From IMG/VR virus record IMGVR_UViG_3300002895_000002, positions 1 through 64,000 of that record: DNA of 64,000 bases; one strand, 5' to 3'. This document shows, one piece after another, positions 4,897 through 54,195 of this stretch. Within the stretch, counting starts at the first letter, position 1, and each line of letters begins with the position of its first letter. The notes beneath the pieces are model-generated. The model saw only the letters and a list, made by a program, of their open reading frames with translations. It made no database searches and was not told the origin of the DNA. The translations under genes were made by a program, and so were the position numbers. The DNA comes from a virus. Its lineage: Duplodnaviria > Caudoviricetes.

Positions 4897-5400
4897 GTGA
4901 ACAATTTCAAAACCGCTCTCACCACCCTCAACGAAGCCAAAAACATCGAAGACTTCATCATGAACGCAGGTGAGGGTGACTATGGTACTGTTCACCCTTC
5001 ACATAATCACAAATCCCTCACTGCAATCTATCATGCTGTTGGTGGTGATGACAAACACCCTGAGCTCAAGAAGATGGTTGCTGATCCCGAGCATGCCAAG
5101 ACAGTGATCGCCGCCAAGAAGGCTGAGGATAAGAAGGCCGCACCGAAAGCCCCCAAGGCACCGAAAGCAGACAAAGGACCTTCGGACACAATGACCAAGG
5201 GTGAGTATAAGAAAACCGTCAGGGATGCTGCAAAGGGGTGGAAAGCAGACAACCCGGGCGAAAATCTCAGCCAAGTTGCTCATGATCTGGCTCATGCAAT
5301 GCTCACCGACCCGAGGCTTCACAATCACATCAAGAAGCATTACGGGACCACTTCCAAAGAGCACGCTGCTCAGATTGTGGCGGATGACCTGTATAATTAA
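4897..5400 (+). CDS. Putative internal head protein (capsid-targeting-like N-terminus)
   Basis: MNNFKTALTTLNE start, Lys/Ala-rich, late context. Confidence 0.5.
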   Translation: MNNFKTALTTLNEAKNIEDFIMNAGEGDYGTVHPSHNHKSLTAIYHAVGGDDKHPELKKMVADPEHAKTVIAAKKAEDKKAAPKAPKAPKADKGPSDTMTKGEYKKTVRDAAKGWKADNPGENLSQVAHDLAHAMLTDPRLHNHIKKHYGTTSKEHAAQIVADDLYN

Positions 5401-5432
5401 GACTTGATAAATAACATCATGGGGAATTTACT

Positions 5433-5720
5433 ATGAGCCATTTCAATAAATTAAAGAGTCTTCTAAACGAAGATCGATGGAAAGATGCCTGGTTTGCTGA
5501 AGAAAAAGCAAATAAATCCAATCATCCCGACGACCACTATGACGCTGCGGTAAAATATATGCATGCCGCAGCTGAAGCAAACGGTATGGGTGCCAGCGTT
5601 CAGGAGATGTCATACCGGAACAAAGCTGCCATACACCTCAAAAAGTCAGGGAAATCTGAGATTGCTAAGGAACATCTTCCTTCTGTTGGGAGACCGCACA
5701 ATTACTCAATGGATTACTAA
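5433..5720 (+). CDS. Putative internal head protein
   Basis: MSHFNKLKSLLNE start; ATAAATA at about 5408. Confidence 0.5.
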   Translation: MSHFNKLKSLLNEDRWKDAWFAEEKANKSNHPDDHYDAAVKYMHAAAEANGMGASVQEMSYRNKAAIHLKKSGKSEIAKEHLPSVGRPHNYSMDY

Positions 5721-5737
5721 CCCACAGGAACATTATC

Positions 5738-6304
5738 ATGGCACTTGATTTTTCTATTGACAAGGAAGAGAAGAGAGGGAAGCCGGGCACTCTTCATGAA
5801 AATGATAACGCCAATCTTGGCATGAAACAACCCGTCGCTGACATGCTCTCCGAACAGATGGGGATGGAGCTTGAGAGCTCACAGATCTACATCGGCATGG
5901 CTGTGTGGTGTGATCAAGTGTCGTTGCTTGGTGCTTCCTCCTGGTTCATGAAACAAGGGGCCGAGGAGTACACTCACTATCAGAAGCTCTTGGCGTTCGC
6001 TATGGACTGTGGTAACTCCATCACTCTGCATCCAATCAACGGTGTAGAGACGGAATTTGATAGCCTGCTGGACTGTTTTGCGAAGACGGTTGAGCATGAG
6101 AAGACCGTCTGGCGTTCGCTCCAGAAGATATATGACGCCGCTCTCAAGGCCAATGACGTTGAGGTTCGTGTCCTGCTTGAGGGCTTCCTCCAGGAGCAGA
6201 TCGAGGAAGTTCGTACAGTGACGAATGTTTATAATAGGCTTAAACTTGTTGGTACTGATGGTACCGGCATTTTATTGATAGATCAAGAGCTAGGAAAACG
6301 ATAA
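5738..6304 (+). CDS. ftnA: Ferritin (non-heme, FtnA-like)
   Basis: Ferroxidase-type motifs EQMGMELESSQIY, EEYTH, HEKTV, FLQEQIEE. Confidence 0.85.
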   Translation: MALDFSIDKEEKRGKPGTLHENDNANLGMKQPVADMLSEQMGMELESSQIYIGMAVWCDQVSLLGASSWFMKQGAEEYTHYQKLLAFAMDCGNSITLHPINGVETEFDSLLDCFAKTVEHEKTVWRSLQKIYDAALKANDVEVRVLLEGFLQEQIEEVRTVTNVYNRLKLVGTDGTGILLIDQELGKR

Positions 6305-6957
6305 GCATTTTTCTATTTTGCTGATATTCTCTCAATTTTTGTTTTCTGCTGTCGGAACATGGTGTTCTTTGTGCGACTTTCCGAGCTTTTGCTGAAGCTG
6401 AAATGTTATTACGATGTTCTTCGGAAAACTGTCTTCCTTTCATTGCCTTAGAACGCAATAACTTTTGTTCTTCTGACATTGGTGCTCTTTTTGAAGTTTT
6501 TGGTTTTCTCATTTTTTCTTTAGTTTCTTCTGTATGCTTGAAGTTCTTTGCTCTTTTAGATATTTCTTCTTTGCGACGTTTTGCTTCTTCAAGACCAAAC
6601 ATTTCTTCGTATGTTTTTCCTTTATACGGAGCATTTTTTGCTGAATTTTTTGATATTTTATTTTTACTTTCAATGGAATGGGTTGAAGTATATTTTCCAC
6701 CCAACGTAAGATTATATGTGTCTATCCGCGATAAGAAATGCTCATCTACTATACATGCTTCCCATTCCAATACATCTTCACGCGATAGACAATAATGAAG
6801 AATAATTCGTTCGAAGTTTTCTTTTCCGTATTTCTTGATTGCCTTTTGAATGGATATCCCTAAACCAAGATAACCATCAAGTTTCCAAGTTGAATGAACA
6901 CCGACATAGATTTTTTTCATTGATGAGATTACGAGTGAGATAAACGATGTGCCACAT
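6240..6957 (-). pseudogene. GIY-YIG (Seg-like) homing endonuclease with NUMOD3 repeats; +1 frameshift in an A7 run at 6911-6917
   Basis: MWHIVYLTRNLINE(K)KIYVGVHST...GYLGLG; GAGGTG RBS before ATG 6957. The 3' end overlaps the ferritin 3' end in antisense. Confidence 0.8.
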
Positions 6958-6969
6958 GATTTCACCTCA

Positions 6970-7059
6970 ATAAATAGACATGGCAGGGACATCAGAGTTT
7001 CACCTCCTCTGTTGGTCATCGATTGCCGTCGTGACCTTACCTGCTATTCTATTTATAAA
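6970..7059 (+). ncRNA. HEG-associated three-way-junction element, copy E2
   Basis: P1 UGGCAGG/CCUGCUA, GA, P2 CAUCAGAG/CUCUGUUG with loop UUUCACCUC, P3 GUCA/UGAC, CUUA; opposed late promoters. Confidence 0.8.
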
Positions 7060-7103
7060 TTTGGAGTGAAAATCATCCTCATTGACCAGGAGCTTGGAAA
7101 ACG

Positions 7104-7491
7104 ATGAAAAATTTTGAGAAAATGATTGGGTTGCTTGAAGGTGTTGACAGAGAGCCAACTGCAGCACAAAAACACAAAGCTAAGATTGACGTTCTCAAGA
7201 AGCTGGGGTATAAGGTTACAGAAAGGGAAAATACCCCCCGGGAATCATAAAGCCTGGCTTTCTCATCCGAAGAGGAGTGATCACGATAGGGATGAGATTA
7301 AATCAGCCATAAGTTCTATCCCGGGATACTCTGCTGAATATGATAAAGGATTCGATCCTGATCGTCTCTATGTTCGTCGGAACGGTCAATCTATCGGACA
7401 CGTTGTTCTTCAAGGCGGTTCCAGTTTGTATGTCGGAACATACAAACACAATGTATCAGGAAAAGAAGCATCTTACGGCTACGATCGATAA
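7104..7491 (+). CDS. Putative internal head protein, apparent frameshift near 7222
   Basis: MKNFEKMIGLLE start at 7104 joins the called ORF (GKIPPGNHKAW...) if one A is removed. Confidence 0.4.
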
Positions 7492-7562
7492 CTAGATGTG
7501 ATATATGAAAAGCATTCCAAGATTCATACGTCAAACAACTTCGAAACAGAGGGCTACTAATA

Positions 7563-7823
7563 ATGAACAACTTTAGCAAACTGAAAACTCTCCTTGAGGA
7601 AACCCAACTCAAAGAGAGTTGGAAGTCATACGACCAAATCGCCGCAAATGCACATAAGGCATCTGAGCGTGCCGAATCCACTAATGACCCGGAAGACCAT
7701 AACTTGGCTGCTCGTCTTCATTCAGCAGCTGGTGTTGTTGCCCAAGGGCTCGGCAAAGTAAAGGAAGCCGAAGAGCACTATGGAAAATCCGAAAAACACG
7801 AAAAGAAATCCTGGGGATATTAA
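7563..7823 (+). CDS. Putative internal head protein, similar to 5433..5720
   Basis: MNNFSKLKTLLEE start; AA.LH..AA helix resembles the 5433 protein. Confidence 0.5.
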   Translation: MNNFSKLKTLLEETQLKESWKSYDQIAANAHKASERAESTNDPEDHNLAARLHSAAGVVAQGLGKVKEAEEHYGKSEKHEKKSWGY

Positions 7824-8271
7824 TGCTTCGGTTCGGTCAATTCATAACCGAAGACAGGGATAGAACAATCCTTACTCATAAGGGCTATTCTGTCATTCAT
7901 TCTGTTCATAGTCGTGAGCAACTCGTGAAGAGAAATCGCGATGAAGGGAAGTTGAACGATCGCCGGACTGACTATCTGTTCCGTAAGGCTGTTGATCACG
8001 CTATCGCTGATCCTTATCTTCACAACAAAGAGGCAATGTTCTACAGCAAGAGCGTTGATCATGCTTTCGTTGGTGCGGTGGATCATGAGAAAAACAAATT
8101 AGGGTTATCACATGGATGCCCCATCGGTCCAAGCATGATCCGCCAAAGGTTGACTGGACACCGCCGCACCCCGAGTGGAACAAAAATATCGTAATCTCCC
8201 AAAACAAGAAGACGGTCCCGGTATTGATGGAGGGTGGGGAACGAGAGATTGAGTTGATTGAGATAGATTAG
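7823..8271 (+). CDS. Hypothetical protein with capsid-targeting-like start, apparent frameshift at about 8096
   Basis: MLRFGQFITE start; adding one A continues as KIRVITWMPHRSK...EIELIEID*. Confidence 0.45.
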
Positions 8272-8302
8272 CCTCACCTGCCAAGCGTAGGAGGAGATAG
8301 AA

Positions 8303-8332
8303 GGTCGCCAGAAATGGCGGCCTTTTCATTTG
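8303..8332 (+). terminator. Rho-independent terminator
   Basis: AAGGTCGCC-AGAAAT-GGCGGCCTT followed by a T-rich tail. Confidence 0.65.
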
Positions 8333-8403
8333 ACGAAAATTTGATAAAAGTGTTGACATCCATCATCAGTTCTGTTATTATGGAAACATAACAAATTGGA
8401 GGA

Positions 8404-8667
8404 ATGAAAATGTTTAGATCTCACGAAGAATACGCCGATTCCCTTATTGACGAAGCATCTGAGATAGTACATCGGCTGCATAGTACCAACCGTGAAGTTT
8501 TCGGTCATGTTGACGAACAACACGCATACGACTTTCTGCGGTTGTTTATCTATAACAAGCCCAAATATAATCATCTTGCTACCGATGATGAGAAACTTGC
8601 TGCTTACGCAGCAGACTGTAATGCTGCCGATAAAGATTCTTACCACAACGCTCGTTACGCTCGATAG
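8404..8667 (+). CDS. Hypothetical early protein
   Basis: Promoter plus GGAGG RBS. Confidence 0.6.
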   Translation: MKMFRSHEEYADSLIDEASEIVHRLHSTNREVFGHVDEQHAYDFLRLFIYNKPKYNHLATDDEKLAAYAADCNAADKDSYHNARYAR

Positions 8668-8920
8668 GAGGTTCACTATGTCCGCTTATGATGAGTACAT
8701 TGCACGACGGAACGAATTTAGGAGACGATTATGATAGTGAATGATAACGGTGAAACGATAAAGGAAAAGAGTTTTCGACTCGACTCCGGGAAGCAGTCGA
8801 GCCAATAATTAATGAAATGGTAGAAGCCGGTACAACCATCCCTGAGATTTACTACCTTTTTGATGGCTTGAAGTTTGAAGGAATGATGAAAGTTCTGGAA
8901 ATGAGATTTGATGGAAAACG

Positions 8921-9175
8921 ATGAAAAAGACCATTGCGGTGACTGTCTACGTGGATGTTGAGGTGGATAAGGGCGGCAAGGAAGCATGCAAGCGGTTCGC
9001 CAAGGAGAGCGTTGTGGTGCTTGACAGAGCCGTTGCTGGCATTCACGGTTCCTTTTTCTCCAAACCATCAGAGAAACCCAAGTCCGCCGAGGTGTTCAGC
9101 GATGGTCACTACAAGAAACCAAAGAAGGAGAAAACGTCATGGCAAACGCAACCGAAAGAATCACTGAGCAGTTGA
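8921..9175 (+). CDS. Hypothetical protein
   Basis: ORF within an early operon. Confidence 0.5.
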   Translation: MKKTIAVTVYVDVEVDKGGKEACKRFAKESVVVLDRAVAGIHGSFFSKPSEKPKSAEVFSDGHYKKPKKEKTSWQTQPKESLSS

Positions 9176-9703
9176 AGGAAGCCGGTTTCCAGTGTGCTGT
9201 AGCTGTCGCCACCGAAGCCGAGATCGCTAACGGCGCCGCCTGTGGTCAGCTGTCGATCATCACGGAGCAGTAACATGCCAACTTACGGAGAGTCAGCAGT
9301 GATGTGCATCTGTGCCGCGTCGATGACCTTAGAGGAGTGTTCCCTCGATTACCACATGACCGGACCGGCAGCGGATATCGACGCCGCGGTGCTTGTCACT
9401 GCTGATCTCCTGGGGTGTCTCAATGAAAGAATCGCCTAATGTCAAGAGTGGATGGTTCACTGATAACCGTAAGCACAAATATCACTTCTACCTTCCCAGC
9501 CTTGACTCAGCCTGTGGAGATTTGGTTCTCTCCAGCAGACCGTCGAAACGCGCACGGGAACTCGGTCTTGGTTTTCAACTCGGTGTACCTGCGGAGAAAT
9601 GCTGCAAGAAATGTCTGAAGGCTCTTGAGGAGATTCAAAAAAGTAGTTGACATTCTCTTTTCCTTCTGTTATTATTGAAACATAATACAGAGGGAGGTAG
9701 ACA

Positions 9704-10015
9704 ATGAAAAAGAATGCCGAAGTAAACGGTTGGACTCGTGAGAAGGTAATCGCCTTGATCAACACCAACGATAAAGCTGTTGAGCGGGCGATGGTGGTTG
9801 TGTTTAACAACCAAACACGCGATGAGCAGCACATGGAAGCAACCACTCACAACAACGGTGTCGGGTTTGCTGCATGTGATGCTCGCAAGGGTACCTACTA
9901 TGCCAAGTGGGTTCTTTCCGGTAAGCATCTTACTGGTCGGCATCTTGAAAGAGCCAGGAAAATGGCTTGCAAGTATGTCGGTCAACTGATGGTTGCTATC
10001 GCCAACAAGGCATAG
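9704..10015 (+). CDS. Hypothetical early protein
   Basis: Promoter at 9648 and GGAGG RBS. Confidence 0.65.
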   Translation: MKKNAEVNGWTREKVIALINTNDKAVERAMVVVFNNQTRDEQHMEATTHNNGVGFAACDARKGTYYAKWVLSGKHLTGRHLERARKMACKYVGQLMVAIANKA

Positions 10016-10024
10016 GAGGACACT

Positions 10025-10237: not shown

Positions 10238-10296
10238 TTGACAAATCTAAGGTGTTATGTTAGACTGTAACTATAAAAACAAACGGGAGGTAGGTC

Positions 10297-10740
10297 ATGA
10301 AATCATTCAAAAGAAATATCGTTTTTGATGCTATCCTGAGGGAAGCAGAAGCAGCAGCAGATGTTGCCGCAAAAGCATGGCTCGCTGCAGCGGAGAAACG
10401 CGGGGCCGGCATTTCGGTCCATGAATGCTCGTTGTTCGGTGGAGCAACCGGTCCTGCTATCGGGTATATGCTGGATGTCTGTGGAGGCGGCTACATCGCC
10501 ATCCGGGACGGCCGCAAGAAGTTCACCAAGTACCTAATCGAGCTCAAGAAACTTGAGTACGAGCAACGCTTTGGTAGGAAGCCCGGCCCAGGTTCTGTCG
10601 GAAAATACTGGGACGTCCGGCACTCCCTGTCCATGCGTCAAGAGATGGGGTTGCATGAAGTATCACTCCACGCGTTCTTTGATGTGTTGAAAAAGCATGG
10701 GGTTTCTGATGGTATGTATGTTCGGACCTACATCGATTAG
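10297..10740 (+). CDS. Hypothetical early protein
   Basis: Promoter at 10238 and GGAGG RBS. Confidence 0.65.
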   Translation: MKSFKRNIVFDAILREAEAAADVAAKAWLAAAEKRGAGISVHECSLFGGATGPAIGYMLDVCGGGYIAIRDGRKKFTKYLIELKKLEYEQRFGRKPGPGSVGKYWDVRHSLSMRQEMGLHEVSLHAFFDVLKKHGVSDGMYVRTYID

Positions 10741-10749
10741 GAGGTTGAC

Positions 10750-19401: not shown

Positions 19402-19782
19402 ATGGCAAAGCCCAAAGGTTTCAAGAAATATGTCACTGAAGAGAAGGAAGGCCGGAATGTTTATGCTTATGTTGTTCACCAGGACACAAAAGGTGATCGT
19501 TATGTTCTGAACAAGGACAAGAGCGCATTTATTCCAGCTGAAGTTCGCAACGAAAAAGGTGAAATGGTAAGTAACCTTCATAACGCTCATTCCGTTCATG
19601 TCGGCCATTCAACCAGTTATAAAGGGCTCACGCCGGCACACCGCAATCAGATCTTCTCGTCGGTTCCTGCTCAGGTTGGACACATCGACAAATATGAACA
19701 CGATGTTGACGTGATGGATGAGTTTCAACTCGGCGCCGGCTCTGCGGTACACCACACCCAAAATTTGGATGTCGAAGACTAA
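19402..19782 (+). CDS. Putative internal head protein
   Basis: MAKPKGFKKYVTE start; ATAAATA at about 19368. Confidence 0.5.
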   Translation: MAKPKGFKKYVTEEKEGRNVYAYVVHQDTKGDRYVLNKDKSAFIPAEVRNEKGEMVSNLHNAHSVHVGHSTSYKGLTPAHRNQIFSSVPAQVGHIDKYEHDVDVMDEFQLGAGSAVHHTQNLDVED

Positions 19783-22043: not shown

Positions 22044-23279
22044 ATGACAAAAAAAGAATACCTTCAGAAAATGGTCGTGGAGCGGGTCCAACAAAACCTG
22101 CTCCGCGAATCAAACACCTCGGCTGATGCGGCTACGTTTGCAAAACTGAACCTGCCGCTCGTCAAGAAGATCTATCCGGACATGTTGGCGTCTCAGATCT
22201 GTGACGTCCAACCGTTGCATGGTCCGCGTGGCATCATCTCGGCTCTGTTCAGTTACTATAAACCAACCGAAGATGTCAATCTCGAGAACGCTCGGATCTT
22301 TGAGGTAGACACCACCGCAGGGTTAGTGACTGGACAGATTCAGGTTATTGGTGCAACGACCTGGCAGATCGAGTACATTGATGGCAGCGGAAAGGCGTTC
22401 CTTGCTATCGCTACTGTCGGCCCAAATGCTCCAGTTGCTCCTGGTACTGCGTTCGGTGCGGCGACGGTAATAATTACCACAATCAACCGGGCGTCTGTGA
22501 AGAAGATCTTCCGTCAGTATTCCGGACCGTACACCAACGACATCGTTGTTCCTCGTCAGATTGGACACGAGATCAGAACGATGACCGTTGAAGCTAAGTC
22601 CAGAAAGCTCAAGTCGGTTATCTCCAAAGAGAAAGTCCAAGACTGGGAGAGGATCTATGGTGAGAAGGCATACGACCTGATCGCTGAGAACCTGGGAAAT
22701 GAGATCATCCAGGAACTGGACATGGAGCTCATCGATTACATCAGGTCCATCGCTACTCCGATGCCGGACGTTGTTCTTTCCAACTCCTACGGTACCCAGG
22801 GCGATATGATGGCTGTTGGAAACGATCTGTATGTCAACATATTCTTCGCTGCGGAACAAATTGTAAAGGCAACCAAACGGAACAGGACGATCTTCATTCT
22901 CGCTGATGCAACAACGATCGGGTTGCTCCTGACCAACCCGCTCCATACGACAGTGAGTGACGACGAAGACAATCCGTTCTACGTCGGTAAACTGGGAACC
23001 TACAAGCTCTACGCAGATATCTACAGTGAAGACCATTATGTTGCTGTAGGTTATCGTGGTGAGAACCATGGGGATGGTGACACTGGTATCATCTACACCC
23101 CATACATGGACTACTTCCATCAGAGCACTGATCCCGAGACGTTTGCAGAGAAATTCCTCAGCATGTCCAGGTATACGTTCACCCGCCACCCGCAAGATCA
23201 AGGAACTGGCCTCGGTGATAGTGACTTCTTCAGATCTTTTGCTGTTGACCTTTCTGGTCTGAATAACTACACTCCCTGA
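22044..23279 (+). CDS. gp23/gp24-family capsid protein, probably head vertex protein (gp24-like)
   Basis: LPLVKKIYPDMLASQICDVQPLHGPRG, VEAKSRKLK and EIIQELDMELID motifs; stand-alone gene after a late promoter. Confidence 0.8.
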   Translation: MTKKEYLQKMVVERVQQNLLRESNTSADAATFAKLNLPLVKKIYPDMLASQICDVQPLHGPRGIISALFSYYKPTEDVNLENARIFEVDTTAGLVTGQIQVIGATTWQIEYIDGSGKAFLAIATVGPNAPVAPGTAFGAATVIITTINRASVKKIFRQYSGPYTNDIVVPRQIGHEIRTMTVEAKSRKLKSVISKEKVQDWERIYGEKAYDLIAENLGNEIIQELDMELIDYIRSIATPMPDVVLSNSYGTQGDMMAVGNDLYVNIFFAAEQIVKATKRNRTIFILADATTIGLLLTNPLHTTVSDDEDNPFYVGKLGTYKLYADIYSEDHYVAVGYRGENHGDGDTGIIYTPYMDYFHQSTDPETFAEKFLSMSRYTFTRHPQDQGTGLGDSDFFRSFAVDLSGLNNYTP

Positions 23280-31455: not shown

Positions 31456-31788
31456 GTGAACGAGAAGCTTATCATAATGCTTGAGGAAGAAATTCGATTG
31501 GATGAGAAGTTTGGTGATATTATCGATTCTGTCCACCGCTACTTCTCTGAGTTCAAACTGGGTCATAAGCGAAACCCGAGTGGACATACAATGACCATTG
31601 ATGCCGACCCGATGGATCATGACAGTATCCACCTCGGTATCCAGGAAGTAATGAAGAAGCATGGATACAAGAAGATGCAAGGTGATGATCCAAGTGAACA
31701 TGTCTATGCCAAAGACACCTCGATTGTAAAGATCAAGAAACCAAAGAAATCCCGCCAGTTTGAACTTACTTTCAATCACGGCGAATAA
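31456..31788 (+). CDS. Hypothetical late protein
   Basis: ATAAATA at about 31423; MNEKLIIMLEE start. Confidence 0.5.
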   Translation: MNEKLIIMLEEEIRLDEKFGDIIDSVHRYFSEFKLGHKRNPSGHTMTIDADPMDHDSIHLGIQEVMKKHGYKKMQGDDPSEHVYAKDTSIVKIKKPKKSRQFELTFNHGE

Positions 31789-33918: not shown

Positions 33919-34947
33919 ATGCATTGTACCTATACAACCCATATCAAGGTTAATCGAACAGATATTGATAATGTCAAAGAAATTTTGGCTAAAGGTATCT
34001 GTTCTGCTACTCTCCGAGACATCAAAGGGAAACACCTTACCTATATCATCGAATCAGGAAGGATTGATACCCTCCATAAAATAGCAGAAATTTTAACCTC
34101 AAAAGGGATTCCTGCTACATATAATCCCAAAGGTTCGGGTTCATCTGTTGGACGGGTGGAGGGCGTTGGTTTTGTTATCTTTGTCCGGCCAAAAAACCTT
34201 CGTTTTGGTGAGTCAGCGAACTCTCTCAATGAGAAACATCTTTTTGATGAAATCCAAAGAATTTCGTCGCCAGATCATCCTGTTGATGTTATATTCGATT
34301 CAGAGGATAAGAAGTTTGAAGTGACTGGTGTTATTGGGGCTGTTCAGTGTAATACCAAAACAAAAAACGCAAAAGGGCAGGCACTCAAAGCAGATGTAAC
34401 CATCAAGACAGTTAATGGGGATGTGCCCATATCAATCAAGTTTGATAATGCTGATTTTTATGCTTCAATCAGTAATGACGAAGATGAGGTTTCAAAGATA
34501 GCGGAACGAGTCATTGAATGGATAAGAAAAACAAATCCTGGAATTATCAAACAAAACCGGGATCTGTTTTCAATGTTTGGAACCGGTGTGATTGCGATTG
34601 AAGTTGACAAAGCATTGATTGTTGACTACATGTTTGGTGCTGACATTCTCAATGGTGGGGCTATTCTGTTCTATAACTATCACGATGAACGTTCAAAGAT
34701 GCACAATGTCCCAGACAAAAAATCAACATACAAGATGCATGTGAAGGATATCATAAGAAATGTTGATGATATAAATAAAGAAGGACTAGGCCTAGATTAT
34801 CCGGTTTTGACGATCCTAAATCATTCCCGAAAAAGGCTGGGTAAATACAAAGGGTTGAATCTTCGGTTAGCAACAAAACGACGAGCAAGGTCAGCAAAGT
34901 TCTGGTTTACATATCACAACGGAAATCTCTCCATTAAAAAGGAATAG
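33919..34947 (+). CDS. Putative PD-(D/E)XK-like nuclease
   Basis: E...KADVTI...ISIK pattern; AT-rich; own promoter. Confidence 0.4.
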   Translation: MHCTYTTHIKVNRTDIDNVKEILAKGICSATLRDIKGKHLTYIIESGRIDTLHKIAEILTSKGIPATYNPKGSGSSVGRVEGVGFVIFVRPKNLRFGESANSLNEKHLFDEIQRISSPDHPVDVIFDSEDKKFEVTGVIGAVQCNTKTKNAKGQALKADVTIKTVNGDVPISIKFDNADFYASISNDEDEVSKIAERVIEWIRKTNPGIIKQNRDLFSMFGTGVIAIEVDKALIVDYMFGADILNGGAILFYNYHDERSKMHNVPDKKSTYKMHVKDIIRNVDDINKEGLGLDYPVLTILNHSRKRLGKYKGLNLRLATKRRARSAKFWFTYHNGNLSIKKE

Positions 34948-34959: not shown

Positions 34960-35295
34960 ATGAATCAAAAATTTGTTTTAATGATCGAAGAGGCAGGAAT
35001 AGAAGATCATTCTAAAATCCACGAATTTCTCTCAAAAATTCACCCAAGACAAAACTCGAAGTCAATAAAACAGGAAGGATTCTGACTGTTACTGGACCTC
35101 ACGGAACTGCGGTTGTTCAGAAGGGTGCCGGGGACGGTAAGTGGCGTGCTCGCTGAGGTGAAGGGAACGTTGATGAAGTAGCATCTGCTCATAGTGGTGT
35201 TGAGCATGTTCTCGACTGGGTTGACAAGGATTATGGTCAGACAAAATTCAAAAAGCAATCAGCAGTAGCTGCCGAAGGAGAAGATGATGAATAAT
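34960..35295 (+). pseudogene. Disrupted small late gene (capsid-targeting-like start)
   Basis: MNQKFVLMIEE start; coding-like segments in successive frames ending AAEGEDDE*. Confidence 0.35.
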
Positions 35296-35742
35296 TTCAA
35301 AAAGATTCTTGAAGAAACATACACCGATCCGGAGTATACTGCACACCGCAATGCTCTCGATCGGATCAGAAACAAACTGGGTCTTCATTCGGGCGAAACT
35401 ATTCGTGTTCCCCTGGTAAAGAAGACTGGAGCGAATGATCATCCGATCGGTTTTGCTCCGACCTCAGATGTCTACAAGGCCAAAGAGGTTGAAATCACAC
35501 CAACCGACATCAAGTACACCGGCCGGGACTATCGTGGGTATTCCCTCCAAGCTCATAACTGGGAAGACCATCTCGACCTTGATGCTATGAAGGGTCATGT
35601 TGAAACCAAGCGTTCTGAAAATGCCGAAAGGATCAAGAAGGCGAAAGAGCACAGCAACAAACCGTCCCAACATGACATGGAAGCCCATGCTTTAAAGCAT
35701 TATTATGGAAATGATACTGCTGCCTTTACGAAAGGAACCTGA
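35284..35742 (+). CDS. Putative internal head protein
   Basis: MNNFKKILEE start. Confidence 0.55.
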   Translation: MMNNFKKILEETYTDPEYTAHRNALDRIRNKLGLHSGETIRVPLVKKTGANDHPIGFAPTSDVYKAKEVEITPTDIKYTGRDYRGYSLQAHNWEDHLDLDAMKGHVETKRSENAERIKKAKEHSNKPSQHDMEAHALKHYYGNDTAAFTKGT

Positions 35743-36131
35743 TGAGATCCTTCAAACAACACCTGAATGAAGACATCAAAACATCGAGAGCTGATGTTGA
35801 TGTATTGGATGGTTGGCATAAGTTCCCGGGCAAAGTAACTATGATTCACCCCGCCCCCGAAGGTGAGAAAGGTCATGGTGATTATGCAGTCCAGAAAGTT
35901 GAAGGCTCCGCTCAACATGGACAACACGCTTTGTATTACAAGGTCAATGACCCTAATGCAGAAGGTGGGAAGGGGTTCCGGTGGGAGTTGACTGCGATTA
36001 GACCAACCGTTGGAGAGCTCAAGAAGCATGTCCAATCACATTACGATATCCGGAAAAGGACTGGTTTTGAGCACCCGAAGTTTGAGAACTCTGCTGTTAT
36101 TCCTAATCACAAGAAATCCGGAAATCTTTAA
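35742..36131 (+). CDS. Putative internal head protein
   Basis: MRSFKQHLNE start. Confidence 0.55.
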   Translation: MRSFKQHLNEDIKTSRADVDVLDGWHKFPGKVTMIHPAPEGEKGHGDYAVQKVEGSAQHGQHALYYKVNDPNAEGGKGFRWELTAIRPTVGELKKHVQSHYDIRKRTGFEHPKFENSAVIPNHKKSGNL

Positions 36132-36264
36132 TGTGGTCTTACCTTTGCAAGAAATGTGGGTCTAAGGACGATTGGATGTCAAAGCCAATCGCTCGTTGCC
36201 CGAAGTGTGGGTCTACTGTTTCATCACTGAGAACCAAAGCATCAGCAGGAAGACGACCACCTAG

Positions 36265-36789
36265 ATGATTCGTTTCCGTGAATATCTTAATGAGGACACC
36301 TACCTGGATTCCATCAAGCCGAATGGATGGAAGAAAGGTGATCCTCTGATTGACATATACAAAAACCCATCCAAGACCGACATCGCCAAGATGAAGAAGG
36401 TTCGGTTCATTCTCGATGCTCAAACCAAGACCTGCTATATGTGGGACGCTTCGGTGATGCATTGGGACGCTACTCAAGTAATCAACAAACATGCGGACAT
36501 CCCTGAAGATATGATGGCTTCCAGCTTGTATGGCCTGCTTGACAAGGGGTGGCTTAGGTATTTCCTTGGCTCAAGGAGTGGGGATAAGGTCGAGTCTGAT
36601 ATCCTTGACTCGTTCTCTTTTGATGACTGGGCATGGAATCGAGGAGAGAAGGGCGAGGTGGAGAAGGCTAAGAAGCAGGTACAGAAGATAGCTGCGATGG
36701 ACTGGTCCTGGGCTTCCCGCTATGGGATCGATCCTGGCAAGATCAAGAAGATACTGGACGATCTGAAGCATGAGACCGAGAAACGATAA
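36265..36789 (+). CDS. Putative internal head protein
   Basis: MIRFREYLNE start. Confidence 0.55.
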   Translation: MIRFREYLNEDTYLDSIKPNGWKKGDPLIDIYKNPSKTDIAKMKKVRFILDAQTKTCYMWDASVMHWDATQVINKHADIPEDMMASSLYGLLDKGWLRYFLGSRSGDKVESDILDSFSFDDWAWNRGEKGEVEKAKKQVQKIAAMDWSWASRYGIDPGKIKKILDDLKHETEKR

Positions 36790-36955
36790 CCTCATCGATA
36801 TGCTCGAACAAGTTTGGAATCACAAATCTGCGTTCGGGACTGACTATACAGCGATCCCGACTCCCGATGTAATTTCTACTCCTGAGAATGACCCCTCCTT
36901 GTCAAAAAATCCTATAAAGAAAAAGAAAAAACGGTTCAGAGACTTCGCTAAATAG
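36770..36955 (+). CDS. Hypothetical protein
   Basis: Overlapping ORF with a basic C-terminus. Confidence 0.45.
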   Translation: MRPRNDNLIDMLEQVWNHKSAFGTDYTAIPTPDVISTPENDPSLSKNPIKKKKKRFRDFAK

Positions 36956-49006: not shown

Positions 49007-49067
49007 TAATTTGACAGAACAATCATCTTCAAGTAATATAAAAACAACAACAAACGAAGGAGAAAAT

Positions 49068-50009: not shown

Positions 50010-50910
50010 TTACAGAAGATTCTATCCGGAGAGACCAACCAGGTGTTGAAGAAAGTCTCCGGATAGAATCTTTCTTTTTCAAACCAGGGCTGATATTGAT
50101 TGGAGGGACAACAGTTCCTTTGTTGGCTAGGAGCTGTTTTGGTGATAGGAGATGCTCATTACAGAAATCCCAAAGATCTGCCGTTTTAAATTCCTTACCA
50201 TCAGGGCTGGTTAGTATATAGAGTTTATTTGTTATCCTTATGTTTTTGCCTTGGGTCTTTTCCGGCAATGGGCTGAATTGATTTGGGGCATCATATAGTT
50301 CGGACAACAACCATCCTTCGGTGTTCATGAGACGTTGGACTGAATTTGGTTTGTGTAGGCCCAATGGAATTTCGATTTTTGGGACAACAGATCCAAGATG
50401 AGCCAAGAGATGCTTAGGAGAAAGGGTTAGGTGAGTACACCACTGAATCAGGTCATTGATTAGATATTCATTGCCATTTGGGTCTGTGAGATTGTAGAAT
50501 TTTTTATTGTGTGGTGTCGATCCTTTTATGAATGGTTTCATTCTTTCTCTGATTTGTGGTTGGTTTGTTATTTTCCCTTGATAGTTTGGGTTATTTTCTC
50601 CGGATCGAAACCCAGAACCGCCCGGAATTTGATTATAAGTGTCTGTTCTAGATATAAACCAGTCATCAACAATCATTTTTTCTAGTTCATAGGCGTGTTC
50701 ATCCGATAAAGCTTCGTGAAGAATTATTCGTTCGAAGTTTTCTCGGCCATAAAGTTTGATTGCATCAGAAATTATGGTTCCGGACCCAAGGTATGGATCA
50801 CTTTTGGTATGAGAAGAATGTTTTCCAACGTAGATTTTACCGTTGATCTTATTGCGGATGAGATAAACGAAATGATAGACTGGGTCTTTTTTACCACGAC
50901 GGGAACGCAT
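49996..50910 (-). CDS. GIY-YIG (Seg-like) homing endonuclease with duplicated C-terminal domain
   Basis: HFVYLIRNKINGKIYVGKHS...YLGSG...YNQIPGG; two LT(D/S)P(N/D)G.E repeats. Confidence 0.85.
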   Translation of the reverse strand: MRSRRGKKDPVYHFVYLIRNKINGKIYVGKHSSHTKSDPYLGSGTIISDAIKLYGRENFERIILHEALSDEHAYELEKMIVDDWFISRTDTYNQIPGGSGFRSGENNPNYQGKITNQPQIRERMKPFIKGSTPHNKKFYNLTDPNGNEYLINDLIQWCTHLTLSPKHLLAHLGSVVPKIEIPLGLHKPNSVQRLMNTEGWLLSELYDAPNQFSPLPEKTQGKNIRITNKLYILTSPDGKEFKTADLWDFCNEHLLSPKQLLANKGTVVPPINISPGLKKKDSIRRLSSTPGWSLRIESSVIIST

Positions 50911-50923
50911 GACATTCACCTCA

Positions 50924-51012
50924 ATAAATAGATGTGACGGGGACAGTGGAGTTTCACCTCCTCCATTGGTTGTCAGTGCCACCTGCAACCTTACCTGTTC
51001 CTTTTATTTATC
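50924..51012 (+). ncRNA. HEG-associated three-way-junction element, copy E6
   Basis: P1 GACGGG/CCUGUU, GA, P2 CAGUGGAG/CUCCAUUG with loop UUUCACCUC, P3 GUUG/CAAC, CUUA; opposed late promoters. Confidence 0.8.
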
Positions 51013-51046
51013 ATTTCCCAAAAAATAAAGAAAATAGAGTCAACTA

Positions 51047-51226
51047 ATGAATAAAGAAATGAAGATCAGATGTCAGGTTTGTGGGGAATGGATTCCTGTT
51101 CGTTATATTCACGAGCATGTTGATTGGCAACACCAGGTCAATACTGAATACCATAGTTACATCATGAGTTTAACAATCGAACAGATATTAGAAAATTCCA
51201 AGAATCAATTCCAGATTAGAATTTGA
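51047..51226 (+). CDS. Small Zn-finger-like hypothetical protein
   Basis: Manual translation: MNKEMKIRCQVCGEW...HEHVDWQH. Confidence 0.4.
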   Translation: MNKEMKIRCQVCGEWIPVRYIHEHVDWQHQVNTEYHSYIMSLTIEQILENSKNQFQIRI

Positions 51227-51270
51227 CAAGATTTGAGTTCGGTGTTACTGTATAGAAAAGGAGATGATCC

Positions 51271-51654
51271 ATGGCTAAGCTATTCGATTACATTGACGCT
51301 CTGACCACCAAGAAGCCAATCAAAGAGGACCCGGATGTCTTCCAGAAAGACTTCCAACCGTTTATCATCAATCGAGTGTTTTCGTGTGATAATAACCTGG
51401 TTCTCATCGCCAATCTCTGTAACCAGGGTGGAATGACCAAGGAGATGATCCGGGATCTGTATTATTACGGAGTCCCGAAAGGCAAACGGTTTATCAAGTA
51501 TTCCGCAAAGAAAGAAAAGTCAGACGGACTGATCAAATACCTGATGGACTACTTCGGAGTCAACCAACATACAGCGAAGCAATATGCTGTGCTTCTGGAT
51601 AAGAAAGAGATTGACGAAATTGTCGAGTTTTACGAGAAAAGAGGGAAGGGTTAG
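51271..51654 (+). CDS. 62: Clamp loader small subunit (gp62)
   Basis: LFDYIDALTTKK...FQPFIINRVFS...YFGVN pattern; downstream of gp44. Confidence 0.8.
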   Translation: MAKLFDYIDALTTKKPIKEDPDVFQKDFQPFIINRVFSCDNNLVLIANLCNQGGMTKEMIRDLYYYGVPKGKRFIKYSAKKEKSDGLIKYLMDYFGVNQHTAKQYAVLLDKKEIDEIVEFYEKRGKG

Positions 51655-51743
51655 TCCAGACAATCGTCAAACCCAAAGTCCGTTCATACGCATGGATTGG
51701 ATGTCCGATTCATAGAAATATTAACCAAAGAAAGGAATGTCAC

Positions 51744-52208
51744 GTGTCACAACCGCAACTCGGATTCACAAGAACAAAAGATGTACAAGCACCAAACCGG
51801 GGAACCCCCAAATCCGCTGGTGTTGATTTCTATGTCCCGGATACCTTCAACGACGGACACCCACTCACTATTCGCCCCGGGGAGCATGTCAAGATTGAGA
51901 TGGGCATCCATGTCCGAATCCCGTCTGGCTTTGCTCTCATTCTGTCCCTCGACAAGAGCGGGATTGGTGCGAAGGGTATCAAGGTCACTGGTGGGGTCAT
52001 TGACGAGGACTACCAGGGTGAGATCATGCTGTTCTTCTACAACATCGGTCAAGAGCCGCAACTCATCAAACCCGGCCAGAAGATTGCTCAAGGCCTGCTC
52101 ATTCCTGTCCTGTACGCAGATGTGGTTGAGTACGAGTACAAAACTGATCTGTATGCCGACCATAAATCCGAGCGTGGTGAAGGCGGCTTCGGCTCGACAG
52201 GAGTGTAA
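51744..52208 (+). CDS. dut: Trimeric dUTPase
   Basis: SAGVDF, DKSG, GVIDEDYQGE, RGEGGFGSTG. Confidence 0.95.
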   Translation: MSQPQLGFTRTKDVQAPNRGTPKSAGVDFYVPDTFNDGHPLTIRPGEHVKIEMGIHVRIPSGFALILSLDKSGIGAKGIKVTGGVIDEDYQGEIMLFFYNIGQEPQLIKPGQKIAQGLLIPVLYADVVEYEYKTDLYADHKSERGEGGFGSTGV

Positions 52209-52210
52209 CC

Positions 52211-52675
52211 ATGCACGTCGAAGGAATCTACAAGGGTTATGTGGTATTCACCAATGACCGGGAGGGACTAGTGAACCCCCGCTCTATCTACTCATACGAG
52301 AAACCCGGCGCAGTCAAGACCGGCGACATCCGGGTTATCGAAGGGTGTATCTGGTATGTCAGCACCATCGACGAGATCACCGAGGAACGCCGGATGCCGC
52401 TTGAAATGTTCTTGGGACCGAAGCACGTCCGTGACCAGGTGTGGTGGCGCCGGGTTCCTGAAAAGAGCACCAAAGCCATCGAGGACATCCAGCACCGCCT
52501 GGGTGAAATCGAAAACTGGTTGAACAGTCCCGCTCCGTGGTGCACCGTGGATGATGTGAAGGCTCTCATAGCCGATGCCATTACCGCCAACCCGAGCATC
52601 ACCGCTGCTGAACTGGATGAAACCATCCGGCATCATCTGGATACTTACAAGCACAAGGAGCGGACAAATGGCTAA
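52211..52675 (+). CDS. Hypothetical protein
   Basis: ORF within the operon. Confidence 0.55.
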   Translation: MHVEGIYKGYVVFTNDREGLVNPRSIYSYEKPGAVKTGDIRVIEGCIWYVSTIDEITEERRMPLEMFLGPKHVRDQVWWRRVPEKSTKAIEDIQHRLGEIENWLNSPAPWCTVDDVKALIADAITANPSITAAELDETIRHHLDTYKHKERTNG

Positions 52676-53432
52676 GGTGATCGGTATCGCCGGCAAGATC
52701 GGCAGCGGCAAGGGCTACTTCGCCTCCAAGCTCATCGCTGACCTGAAGAACGACGGGAAGAGCGTGGCCTACACTGCATACGCCGATCCACTCAAGGACG
52801 TGCTCCTCAGGAACTTCGGCCTGACCAAGACTGGCTTCAAGGGGTACTCTCCACTCGACTACCAAGGTGACGGTTACACCAACACCAAGGTCAGGTTACG
52901 GAAGGGACTCTGGCATTGGCACAAGAAGATCGTCAGCTGGGACTTATTGTCATTCCATGATCAACTCAACGAGAGCCGATCGTTTGATGCTCTCTTTGAG
53001 GAACTCTTCGACACCTACGGCCCGAAACTGGTAGGGCTGATGCGGAAGATCGGTGATGCCGAGGCGAACTATGATGACACGTTCCGCCAGATCATCCAGA
53101 TGGTCGGCACGGAGTTCGGCCGTGGCATCAACGAGAACTTCTGGATCCTCGCCACCTTCGCCAAGATCCATGCAGCACTCGAGGGTGGCTTCGATGCCGC
53201 CGTGATCGACGATGTACGCTTCCCGAACGAGAAGACCGAGCTGGAACTCTTCTGTCAGGAGGCGGACTACATCTGCGAGGTGTGGGGTGTTACTGCATCG
53301 GATAAAGTGAGAGCTCAGCGGAGGGGCATGACCGTAAATGCCATGACTGAGTTTGATCAACACGGCTCCGAGCGGTATATTGACGATATCATCGCCACGC
53401 TACCGCCGGAGTTTATTGTGGTGAACGACTAA
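52668..53432 (+). CDS. dNMP kinase (gp1-like)
   Basis: IGIAGKIGSGKG, RQIIQMVGTEFGR, IDDVRFPNE. Confidence 0.88.
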   Translation: MAKVIGIAGKIGSGKGYFASKLIADLKNDGKSVAYTAYADPLKDVLLRNFGLTKTGFKGYSPLDYQGDGYTNTKVRLRKGLWHWHKKIVSWDLLSFHDQLNESRSFDALFEELFDTYGPKLVGLMRKIGDAEANYDDTFRQIIQMVGTEFGRGINENFWILATFAKIHAALEGGFDAAVIDDVRFPNEKTELELFCQEADYICEVWGVTASDKVRAQRRGMTVNAMTEFDQHGSERYIDDIIATLPPEFIVVND

Positions 53433-53439
53433 ATTGCTC

Positions 53440-54195
53440 TTATTTCACTTTGAATATAGTAGCAGCATGGATCGAAGCAGGTCCATGCTGCTTCAAAATC
53501 CTGCTTCCTTCTGCAATCGTTGATCCAGACGTTAGGAAGTCATCCAGAATGAGAACATGCTTGCCTTGAACTTTCTTGGTCATTTCTGGATCTGCCTTCA
53601 GAAATCCACGAAGGTGTCTCCTCTCATTACCAAGCACCCTCTTCATTTCGAGAGTTTGGTTCCCTTCCTTTTTCAGGCGGTCTATTGTTTTTGTCAGATT
53701 CTTATGTACCTTCTCATTATCGAGATCAGGGCTGATGGTGACATTATCGATGTGGGCCTTATCAAGTGAGCCAGGGTGATAGGAAACACCAGGCATCCGG
53801 GTCATGAGGTGATGGGCAAAACGGTGAACAAGGTCCGACGATGACTTTGGCGTAACAATCATGTCGAACTTTTTGCCCTTGAGGTCTGTGGCGAGAAGGT
53901 GTTGAGCAGTCCTCGAAAGGAAATGTTCCCGGTCCTCATGCTCGAATGTGATATCCGGGTGTTTCCCTTTGAGAGCTTTCATGATATCGCCTGACTGCTC
54001 AATGTCATGCCCAACATGGTAGCTCGAGGAAACAGGAACCTTATCCGTCTGGGTGCTGTGAGTGGAGAACGGTGTTTTCTTCTTTCCCTTCCCGAATTTG
54101 GTTGATATGCCCTCTTGGCTACTGTAGTCGAATTTTAGTTTCCCGTCGACAGTAATGCCCTCGTTGATCTCTATGAATTTTTTGAATGATATCAT
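53440..54195 (-). CDS. Type I phosphoribosyltransferase (ComF/PRTase-like) with capsid-targeting-like N-terminus
   Basis: MISFKKFIEINE start; IVTPKSS; VLILDDFLTSGSTI PRPP motif; ATAAATA and GGAGG upstream on the - strand. Confidence 0.75.
   Translation of the reverse strand: MISFKKFIEINEGITVDGKLKFDYSSQEGISTKFGKGKKKTPFSTHSTQTDKVPVSSSYHVGHDIEQSGDIMKALKGKHPDITFEHEDREHFLSRTAQHLLATDLKGKKFDMIVTPKSSSDLVHRFAHHLMTRMPGVSYHPGSLDKAHIDNVTISPDLDNEKVHKNLTKTIDRLKKEGNQTLEMKRVLGNERRHLRGFLKADPEMTKKVQGKHVLILDDFLTSGSTIAEGSRILKQHGPASIHAATIFKVK

What the first reader, a model, noticed from the sequence alone, without database searches (positions are those of the whole stretch)
4897..54195. Large family of unrelated proteins sharing a T4 capsid-targeting-like N-terminus
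Seen: MNNFKTALTTLNE (4897), MSHFNKLKSLLNE (5433), MKNFEKMIGLLE (7104), MNNFSKLKTLLEE (7563), MLRFGQFITE (7823), MAKPKGFKKYVTE (19402), MNQKFVLMIEE (34960), MNNFKKILEE (35284), MRSFKQHLNE (35742), MIRFREYLNE (36265) and MISFKKFIEINE (54195, - strand), mostly after late boxes. Established: T4 IPII and IPIII begin MKTYQEFIAE, are packaged into the head, are cleaved after Glu by gp21, and IPI* blocks the GmrSD nuclease. Inference: about ten or more co-injected proteins, a likely pool of uncharacterised anti-defence factors.
Basis: partly seen in the sequence, partly recalled or inferred. Interest (0 to 1): 0.7.

Follow-up and report, generated by a model that had tools for sequence, protein, structure and literature searches.

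The report
Capsid-targeting leaders on phage cargo genes
An uncultured T4-like phage puts the same short N-terminal tag, very like the one phage T4 uses to load proteins into its head, on about 18 mostly unrelated genes, so it probably packs and injects an unusually large and varied protein cargo; the principle is known from T4, the scale and the cargo are not.

Summary
All 11 N-termini exist. Nine are strong members of one leader family, M-x-x-F-x-x-(hydrophobic)...[L/I/M]-x-E; 19402 and 34960 are weak. The window is the first 64 kb of a 213-kb IMG/VR T4-like phage, and nine more strong copies lie outside it. A tight form of the motif heads 13 of 336 predicted genes, against 1.4-1.9 expected. 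Only one pair (5433/7563) is paralogous, and synonymous codons show selection on the peptide, not copied DNA.

The phage has a gp21-type prohead protease. Its gp23, gp24 and gp21 carry L/I-x-E at the positions cleaved in T4. Leader positions 4, 7/8 and the Glu match the T4 residues reported as needed for targeting and processing. Homologues of four bodies keep the leader. A closer relative has seven leader genes, reshuffled, in the same region. Three leader-bearing proteins of cultured Ralstonia phage RsoM2USA are among the proteins its authors assigned to the ten main virion bands.

Most likely these are head-packaged, protease-trimmed cargo proteins. An anti-defence role is untested. The kind is known from T4, and this scan found similar sets in other genomes.

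The parts
4897..5400 (+). Leader gene c4897 (167 aa, GTG start): MNNFKTALTTLNE|A, a Lys-rich linker, then a conserved C-terminal four-helix domain. Probably an abundant internal protein.
   Evidence: Leave-one-out (LOO) score 14.6. Its codon-bias rank is 17 of 241. It has 17 homologous clusters, most starting with a leader such as MSNFIELLE, MKKFIAMLEE or MNNFQRILNLLLE. In the AF2 model, residues 101-166 have pLDDT about 96, and no fold match was found.
5433..5720 (+). Leader gene c5433 (95 aa): MSHFNKLKSLLNE|D. Paralogue of 7563.
   Evidence: LOO score 9.0. GATAAATA lies 27 nt upstream. BLASTP to 7563 gives E 1.5e-10.
7104..7491 (+). Leader gene c7104: MKNFEKMIGLLE|G. The ORF stops at 7250 (48 aa), but the protein-like reading continues in another frame after a C6 run (7234-7239) to 7491. 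It is probably one gene of about 128 aa, broken by or mis-assembled at the homopolymer.
   Evidence: LOO score 12.8. Sequence and frames were read. The frame-0 stretch before the C run has negative coding score and the stretch after it a positive one.
7563..7823 (+). Leader gene c7563 (86 aa): MNNFSKLKTLLEE|T. Small helical, TPR-like body.
   Evidence: LOO score 16.3. It gives weak TPR_12 and TPR_2 hits below the Pfam cut-off. It is the paralogue of 5433.
7823..8194 (+). Leader gene c7823 (123 aa): MLRFGQFITE|D. Its start overlaps the stop of 7563 (TAATG).
   Evidence: LOO score 7.1. It hits phrog_17629, of unknown function, at 7.7e-6.
10297..10740 (+).
   Evidence: HMM score 8.7, as a non-seed sequence. 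No Pfam family.
19402..19782 (+). Weak member (126 aa): MAKPKGFKKYVTE|E.
   Evidence: HMM score 5.6, within the control range. GATAAATA lies 35 nt upstream. KGFKKYVTEE resembles KSFKKYLAEE of the gene at 92099.
22044..23279 (+). gp24-like vertex protein, a predicted substrate of the same protease: ...NLLRE|SNTS after residue 22.
   Evidence: Pfam Gp23 match, 152 bits. In the alignment with T4 gp24, the T4 site ELLRE|STTT falls on LLRE|S.
31456..31788 (+). Possible member (110 aa, GTG start): MNEKLIIMLEE|E.
   Evidence: HMM score is only 5.1, but the 80%-identical orthologue in L051 starts MSDKFIAILEE and scores 10.5. GATAAATA lies 35 nt upstream.
34770..34777 (+). Perfect T4-type late box TATAAATA inside the 3' end of the preceding gene, 190 nt before the 34960-36955 operon.
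34960..35085 (+). Weak member (41 aa): MNQKFVLMIEE|A. Possibly the remnant of a decayed gene, since protein-like stretches without starts follow in other frames up to 35283.
   Evidence: HMM score 5.9. Three-frame reading.
35284..35742 (+). Leader gene c35284 (152 or 151 aa): M-MNNFKKILEE|T.
   Evidence: LOO score 17.3. Its 71%-identical orthologue in L051 starts MNNFKKTLSE.
35742..36131 (+). Leader gene c35742 (129 aa): MRSFKQHLNE|D. Translationally coupled to 35284.
   Evidence: LOO score 11.5. Its 36%-identical orthologue in L051 starts MKTFKQHINE and lies before, not after, the 35284 orthologue.
36265..36789 (+). Leader gene c36265 (174 aa): MIRFREYLNE|D. It overlaps the 45-aa zinc-ribbon gene 36131-36268 by 4 nt.
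   Evidence: LOO score 10.3. Its 43%-identical orthologue in L051 starts MKKFIGYLEE. No other relatives were found.
53440..54195 (-). Leader gene c54195 (251 aa): MISFKKFIEINE|G, then a linker of about 55 residues modelled with low confidence, then a type I phosphoribosyltransferase domain.
   Evidence: LOO score 17.2. Pfam Pribosyltran 2.4e-12. In the AF2 model the leader is helix 4-11, residues 10-68 have pLDDT below 50, and the fold spans about 70-251. Foldseek top matches are APRT, PyrR and HGPRT. Homologues at 35-36% identity start MLSFISFIAE and MKTFKEYLTE. AATAAATA lies 31 nt upstream.

Best explanation
The shared N-terminus is this phage's version of the T4 capsid targeting sequence.

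Proposed mechanism:
- The leader is a short amphipathic propeptide with Phe at position 4 and a hydrophobic residue at 7/8. It docks the newly made protein onto the scaffolding core while the prohead assembles.
- It ends in [L/I/M]-x-Glu. The gp21-type prohead protease cuts there, freeing the mature protein inside the head.
- The cargo is then expelled with the DNA into the next host.

About 9 genes in the window and about 18 in the genome use this tag. The cargo mixes probable abundant Lys-rich internal proteins (4897, and 89896 and 90666 outside the window), small helical proteins, and enzymes or repeat proteins (the phosphoribosyltransferase at 54195, and a 597-aa LRV-repeat protein outside the window).

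Shown here: the motif, its enrichment, the protease gene, the conserved cleavage sites, and retention of the leader in homologues.
Inferred by analogy with T4: docking, cleavage and ejection.
Speculative: a role in counter-defence or host take-over.
For: 1. Enrichment and specificity. The tight motif heads 13 of 336 genes against 1.4-1.9 expected. Leave-one-out scores separate the members from 1192 internal-Met controls.

2. Selection acts on the peptide, not on copied DNA. Codons 2-4 agree in 78 pairs against 86.6 expected from codon usage. Only one paralogous pair exists.

3. The machinery is present. Peptidase_S77 (gp21) lies at 127100-127783 of the genome, 94.7 bits. Its GELxHP and GVSxRG motifs align with T4's.

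4. Site specificity is kept. T4 gp23 FLTE|AE aligns with VLEE|AQ, T4 gp24 LLRE|S with LLRE|S, and T4 gp21 LLIE|T with LLIE|E.

5. The leader matches the mapped T4 determinants. According to PMC9026906, targeting depends on CTS residues 4 and 7 and processing on residues 8 and 10. Here F4 is invariant, position 7/8 is hydrophobic and P1 is always Glu. The gene at 89896 begins MKSFKSFIAE, against T4 MKTYQEFIAE.

6. Homologues keep the leader across deep divergence. This holds for the PRTase family, the 4897 family and the 71388 family in two distant T4-like records and in Ralstonia phage RsoM2USA.

7. Independent test set. In the closer relative L051, 7 of 23 genes score 7.3-16.7 with the HMM built from this phage alone. 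Four are reshuffled orthologues. The other three have no counterpart in this genome; one of them is a GNAT acetyltransferase.

8. Experimental link in print. In RsoM2USA, which also has Peptidase_S77, LC-MS/MS of the main bands of purified virions was read by the authors as 'most likely' ORF132, ORF89 and ORF438, among others (PMC8504454). These begin MKTFKQFLNTLME, MKTFKQFLSE and, from Met8, MLTFKQYAQPILTE.

9. Late boxes are enriched upstream: 9 of 21 candidates against 59 of 315 other genes, Fisher p = 0.013.

10. In both AF2 models the leader is a separate N-terminal helix, followed by a low-confidence linker.
Against: - No virion proteomics or N-terminal data exist for this uncultured phage, so packaging, cleavage and ejection are all inferred.
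- Motif look-alikes need not be cargo. T4 lysozyme begins MNIFEMLRIDE, and to my knowledge it is not packaged or cleaved.
- The HMM trained here scores the T4 leaders low (IPI 7.4, IPII 3.1, IPIII 2.1). The likeness to T4 is one of pattern, not of profile.
- Several members sit among early or middle-type genes, and the operon genes have no late box of their own within 120 nt.
- Two distant relatives with the same protease have only 2-3 such genes, so the tag's breadth is lineage-specific.
- The RsoM2USA band assignments are worded as 'most likely' by their authors, and the masses given for ORF257 and ORF438 do not fit the annotated lengths well.
Confidence: 0.7

Rival explanations
1. The leader marks prohead core or scaffold accessory proteins that the protease cuts up and that leave the head before or during DNA packaging. 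On this view the proteins help assembly but are not delivered to the host.
For: - The scaffold protein gp22 itself begins MKELFEKINSE| and T4 gp22, gp67 and gp68 begin with similar L-x-E stretches.
- T4 core proteins are degraded and expelled (PMC9026906).
Against: - The bodies include folded enzymes and confidently folded domains, unlike the acidic or coiled-coil core proteins.
- The RsoM2USA leader proteins were reported in mature virions.
- T4 proteins with a single N-terminal site stay in the head.
Confidence: 0.1
2. The N-terminal motif serves something other than head loading, for example a shared binding helix for a chaperone or host factor, a regulatory degron, or a favoured translation-start context. 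Its likeness to the T4 tag would then be coincidental.
For: - Codons 2-3 are A-rich (AAA, AAT, AAC), as often seen at well-translated starts.
- T4 lysozyme shows that the pattern can occur on a protein that is not packaged.
- No direct data exist for this phage.
Against: - A start-context effect explains neither the invariant Phe4 nor the [L/I]-x-Glu at a fixed short distance.
- That distance and motif match the cleavage sites kept in gp23, gp24 and gp21.
- The same leaders head proteins reported in RsoM2USA virions.
Confidence: 0.12
3. The genes are one diverged paralogous family, or the leader spread recently as a copied DNA cassette, so the shared N-terminus reflects ancestry rather than function.
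For: - 5433 and 7563 are paralogues.
- The genes cluster in variable regions next to homing endonuclease genes.
Against: - No other body pair is alike, even at E = 1.
- Fold classes differ: a PRTase, a helical bundle, LRV repeats and collagen-like repeats.
- Synonymous codon agreement is no higher than chance.
Confidence: 0.03

Closest known systems
T4 internal proteins IPI, IPII and IPIII with their capsid targeting sequence (Mullaney & Black 1996, as reviewed in PMC9026906 and PMC3012670)
   Same: - A 10-19-residue N-terminal propeptide with an aromatic residue at position 4 and a hydrophobic one at 7/8, ending in [I/L]-x-Glu.
- A gp21-type protease in the same genome.
- Bodies unrelated to each other.
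- Genes located in variable regions.
- Some bodies are Lys-rich.
   Different: - About 18 tagged genes, against three IPs plus Alt in T4.
- Phe rather than Tyr at position 4 in every copy.
- No body is homologous to a T4 IP.
- Cargo includes a phosphoribosyltransferase, LRV repeats and (in a relative) a GNAT.
- The genes are spread over about 10 loci.
- Nothing has been shown experimentally.
T4 Alt, the packaged and injected ADP-ribosyltransferase processed by gp21
   Same: A large enzyme carried in the head and trimmed by the prohead protease. This is the precedent for enzyme cargo such as the gene at 54195 and the 597-aa protein at 71388.
   Different: No ART domain was found in any tagged protein here. 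No homology to Alt was tested, because I did not fetch the T4 alt gene.
Ejection and inner-body proteins of phiKZ-like and SPN3US-like giant phages, cleaved at S/A-x-Glu by a gp21-related protease (PMC9026906, PMC5694885)
   Same: Many head-internal proteins matured by a T4-type protease after Glu and delivered to the host.
   Different: Those phages use longer propeptides with several sites and have no short uniform N-terminal tag. The motif here has L/I, not S/A, at P3.
Virion proteins ORF89, ORF132 and ORF438 of Ralstonia jumbo phage RsoM2USA (PMC8504454)
   Same: - They begin MKTFKQFL..E or MLTFKQY...LTE.
- ORF132 is a homologue (35% identity) of the N-terminal domain of this phage's 71388 protein.
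- The phage has Peptidase_S77.
- The proteins were assigned to the main bands of purified virions.
   Different: It is a distant 344-kb phage. The paper did not notice the leader or map N-termini, and the other bodies are unrelated to those in this window.

Membership tests
T4-type CTS-tagged head cargo (internal proteins in the broad sense) | An N-terminal propeptide of 10-19 residues, with the T4 targeting positions (4 aromatic, 7 hydrophobic) and processing positions (hydrophobic at P3, Glu at P1) | tested here: met
   The alignment of 18 leaders shows F4 invariant, position 7/8 hydrophobic and [LIM]-x-E in all. The T4 determinants come from PMC9026906. Met for 9 of the 11 claimed genes and weak for 19402 and 34960.
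T4-type CTS-tagged head cargo (internal proteins in the broad sense) | The same genome encodes a gp21-type prohead protease whose L/I-x-E sites in the capsid proteins are kept | tested here: met
   Peptidase_S77 at 94.7 bits. The T4 cleavage positions in gp23, gp24 and gp21 align with VLEE|A, LLRE|S and LLIE|E.
T4-type CTS-tagged head cargo (internal proteins in the broad sense) | Made late, while proheads assemble | tested here: inconclusive
   A strict late box lies within 120 nt of 9 of 21 candidates, against 59 of 315 other genes (p = 0.013). Several members depend on distant or imperfect boxes, and there are no transcript data.
T4-type CTS-tagged head cargo (internal proteins in the broad sense) | Physically present in the head and cut after the leader Glu | not testable with these tools
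   The phage is uncultured. The only indirect support is that leader-bearing RsoM2USA proteins were reported in virions.
T4-type CTS-tagged head cargo (internal proteins in the broad sense) | Ejected into the host with the DNA | not testable with these tools
   Analogy with T4 only.
Homologues of T4 IPI, IPII or IPIII | Sequence similarity of the mature body to a T4 internal protein | tested here: not met
   No Pfam or PHROG family for the window bodies, apart from a PRTase domain and one PHROG of unknown function. tblastn of 4897 and 7823 against 50,697 phage records, which include T4, found nothing.
Injected anti-defence proteins (IPI*-like inhibitors) | Inhibition of a host defence system, or homology to a known inhibitor | not tested
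   No anti-defence library was available. No body matched a named inhibitor. T7 Ocr at Z 4.2 in the fold search of 4897 lies within the background for helical bundles.
Type I phosphoribosyltransferases (for the gene at 54195) | PRTase fold with the PRPP-binding loop | tested here: met
   Pfam PF00156 at 46.9 bits, above the cut-off of 26.3. The loop VLILDDFLTSGST aligns with PRPP synthetase chains. Foldseek matches to APRT, PyrR and HGPRT have probability 1.00. The substrate is unknown.

The most novel reading that the evidence does not exclude
In this lineage the T4-type tag has become a general address label. The whole injected proteome, about 18-20 proteins, could then be read from the genome sequence. 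It would include enzymes delivered ready-made at the instant of infection, such as the phosphoribosyltransferase here and a GNAT acetyltransferase in a relative, and several new families that act against host defences aimed at this phage's modified DNA.
Probability: 0.25. Interest if true: 0.75.

Novelty: new variant of a known kind. Interest (0 to 1): 0.5.

Why it matters
What a phage injects together with its DNA decides the first seconds of infection, yet it is known for very few phages. If this tag predicts head cargo, injected proteins can be listed from sequence alone, including for uncultured phages.

The list here has 9 genes in this window and about 18 in the genome. It contains orphan families and enzymes that nobody has looked at as pre-made infection tools, so it is a ready set of candidates for counter-defence or host take-over screens. 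The leader could also widen the range of tags used to load foreign proteins into T4-type capsids.

Tried and rejected
- Close relatives. megablast of 7.2 kb against phage records found no match. The search for related loci with 36265 in viral contigs, and with 4897 and the ferritin gene in metagenome contigs, found nothing. The alignment A2 was too diverse for a pattern scan.
- Word-based protein search. 36265 returned only itself, although a 43%-identical orthologue exists in L051. That blank reflected the search's sensitivity, not absence.
- ESM Atlas for 36265: no usable lead.
- Fold searches of the 4897 model in PDB, BFVD and VIA-wide: nothing above background. Best Foldseek E was 0.7, and VIA Z was at most 5.0 for a helical bundle.
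- Complex prediction of the scaffold protein gp22 with residues 1-45 of 4897: no verdict, so it counts neither way.
- PRPP synthetase reading of 54195. It was suggested by a weak PDB sequence match. I set it aside because the model shows a single PRTase domain of about 180 residues behind a linker modelled with low confidence.
- The collagen-like protein after the portal gene (123021, leader score 9.3) is left as doubtful. It may be an external fibre.
- tblastn of 4897 and 7823 against cultured phages: no match.
It has no Pfam family and only a PHROG of unknown function.

Full report
**What the window is.** The window is the first 64 kb of a 213,116-bp IMG/VR virus record that CheckV rates complete. 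GC content is 45.6%, and about 90% of genes lie on the + strand. It is a T4-type phage far from any cultured one. Its topoisomerase subunit is 39% identical to those of Vibrio and Campylobacter phages, and its gp23 is 33-49% identical to the nearest IMG/VR contigs. The genome encodes a gp21-type prohead protease (Peptidase_S77, 94.7 bits), gp22, gp23 and, inside the window, a gp24-like vertex protein at 22044-23279.

**Checking the observation.** All eleven N-termini are in the sequence.
- A tight form of the motif, M-x(1-2)-F-x(2-4)-[LIVM]-x-E, heads 13 of 336 predicted genes. Internal methionines predict 1.4 and residue shuffles predict 1.9, with a maximum of 6 in 500 shuffles.
- I built a profile from 18 leaders found across the genome. 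Leave-one-out scores are 6.2-17.3. Apart from two genuine alternative starts, none of 1192 internal-Met controls reaches 10.
- Nine of the eleven claimed genes are strong: 4897, 5433, 7104, 7563, 7823, 35284, 35742, 36265 and 54195. Genes 19402 and 34960 score 5.6 and 5.9, inside the control range.
- Nine more strong copies lie outside the window, at 70920, 71388, 89896, 90666, 92099, 105098, 150340, 150626 and 197834.
- Possible extra members in the window are 10297, 16179 and 31456.
- Only 5433 and 7563 are paralogues.
- Where two leaders share a residue at codons 2-4, they share the codon 78 times against 86.6 expected from genome codon usage. What is conserved is therefore the peptide, not a copied piece of DNA.

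**Gene details.**
- 4897 starts with GTG.
- The leader of 35284 starts at its second Met.
- The start at 54195 is supported by its own ribosome site, by a late box lying inside the longer ORF, and by the public gene call.
- The 48-aa ORF at 7104 probably continues after a C6 run (7234-7239) to 7491 in another frame.
- The stretch 34960-35283 looks like a decayed gene.

**Late promoters.** NATAAATA occurs within 120 nt upstream of 9 of 21 candidates, against 59 of 315 other genes (p = 0.013). In the window this holds only for 5433, 19402 and 54195. Genes 4897 and 7104 have imperfect boxes. The 34960-36789 operon follows a perfect TATAAATA at 34770.

**Why the leader is most likely a capsid-targeting and cleavage signal.**
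- Aligned with T4, the known T4 cleavage positions fall on matching sites here: gp23 FLTE|AE on VLEE|AQ, gp24 LLRE|S on LLRE|S, and gp21 LLIE|T on LLIE|E. The protease specificity, hydrophobic-x-Glu, seems unchanged.
- The review PMC9026906 reports that in the T4 tag MKTYQEFIAE, residues 4 and 7 carry targeting and residues 8 and 10 carry processing. Here position 4 is always Phe, position 7/8 is hydrophobic and P1 is always Glu.
- The gene at 89896 begins MKSFKSFIAE. T4 IPI begins MKTFKEFTS...ITE|A.
- In the two AF2 models the leader is a separate helix followed by a low-confidence linker. The PRTase fold of 54195 begins near residue 70, and the confident domain of 4897 spans residues 101-166.

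**Evidence from relatives.**
- The two homologues of 54195, at 35-36% identity, start MLSFISFIAE and MKTFKEYLTE. Their neighbours on small contigs also start MKTY..., MKSF... or MKTF....
- Gene 4897 belongs to a family of 17 further clusters, most with a leader, a Lys-rich linker and a conserved C-terminal domain.
- A 15.6-kb contig from a closer relative (L051; core proteins 65-80% identical) covers the same ligase-to-topoisomerase interval. It holds seven genes that score 7.3-16.7 with the profile built from this phage alone.
- Four of those seven are orthologues of 31456, 35742, 35284 and 36265, in a different order. Three are new, one of them a GNAT acetyltransferase. This is the cassette turnover expected of a variable cargo region.
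- Two distant T4-type records with the same protease have only 2-3 such genes, so the expansion is lineage-specific.

**A link to experiment.**
- The N-terminal domain of the 597-aa protein at 71388 has homologues in cultured jumbo phages. In Ralstonia phage RsoM2USA the homologue is ORF132, which begins MKTFKQFLNTLME. That phage also has Peptidase_S77.
- Its authors ran LC-MS/MS on the ten main bands of purified virions. They assigned them as 'most likely' ORF132, ORF89, ORF438, ORF257 and ORF86, besides known structural proteins (PMC8504454).
- ORF89 begins MKTFKQFLSE. ORF438 reads MLTFKQYAQPILTE from its eighth codon. ORF257 begins MFDMLKGLINAPITE. ORF86 has no such start.
- The paper does not mention the shared leader.

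**What the cargo is.**
- Most bodies have no Pfam or PHROG family.
- Gene 54195 is a type I phosphoribosyltransferase.
- Gene 71388 has LRV/HEAT repeats, and 123021 is collagen-like and doubtful as a member.
- Genes 5433 and 7563 are small helical proteins.
- Genes 90666, 89896 and 4897 rank 4th, 7th and 17th of 241 for codon bias, near gp22 and gp21. That fits abundant internal proteins.
- Nothing ties any body to a defence system.

**Caveats.**
- No virion data exist for this phage.
- T4 lysozyme begins MNIFEMLRIDE, and to my knowledge it is not cargo, so pattern alone can mislead.
- My profile scores the T4 leaders low.

**Novelty.** The concept is in print. T-even internal proteins are described as diverse proteins sharing only the tag (PMC3012670), and the tag has been proposed as an evolutionary way to load varied proteins (PMC9026906). 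I found no paper describing a set of this size or these cargo types. This scan has noted similar expanded sets in other T4-related genomes and one tagged gene elsewhere in this genome.

Noticed in passing
window 5738-6304 (+): A ferritin-like gene (Pfam Ferritin 2.8e-27) sits between leader genes 5433 and 7104. It has no leader of its own.
   Followed up: partly
window 7234-7239: A C6 homopolymer where the reading frame of the 7104 gene appears to shift. This could be an assembly error, a pseudogene or a programmed shift.
   Followed up: partly
window 34960-35283: A 41-aa leader ORF is followed by protein-like stretches without start codons in other frames. This is probably a decaying cargo gene.
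   Followed up: partly
window 36131-36268 (+): A 45-aa zinc-ribbon gene is translationally coupled between leader genes 35742 and 36265. The relative L051 has no counterpart at that spot.
   Followed up: no
window 54832-56361 and 57610-58671 (+), 56731-57810 (-): The family B DNA polymerase is encoded in two pieces, separated by a minus-strand ORF at 56731-57810 that was not identified here.
   Followed up: no
window 3551-4123 (+): An SLT-type lytic transglycosylase with a hydrophobic N-terminus. A GATAAATA box lies 54 nt upstream.
   Followed up: no
P0008 (1281 aa) and P0009 (905 aa): The conserved C-terminal domain of the 4897 family also occurs inside very large proteins, at residues 280-381 and 544-636.
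   Followed up: no
L046:686-4508: In an unrelated low-GC phage contig, the leader-tagged PRTase sits beside a YAcAr/SLOG-family gene, a leader-tagged cupin, a glycosyltransferase and further MKSF and MKTY genes.
   Followed up: partly
L056:10364-17073 (Ralstonia phage RsoM2USA ORF274-284): An array of 11 genes of about 190-210 aa. Eight begin MKLxEI or MRLxEI, a possible ultra-short L-x-E leader. Two (ORF275 and ORF279) begin with the longer MxFKxWLxE form.
   Followed up: no
genome 123021-124298 (L008:2022-3299): A collagen-repeat protein directly after the portal gene begins MKSFKDRTLGE. It may be a head fibre rather than internal cargo.
   Followed up: partly
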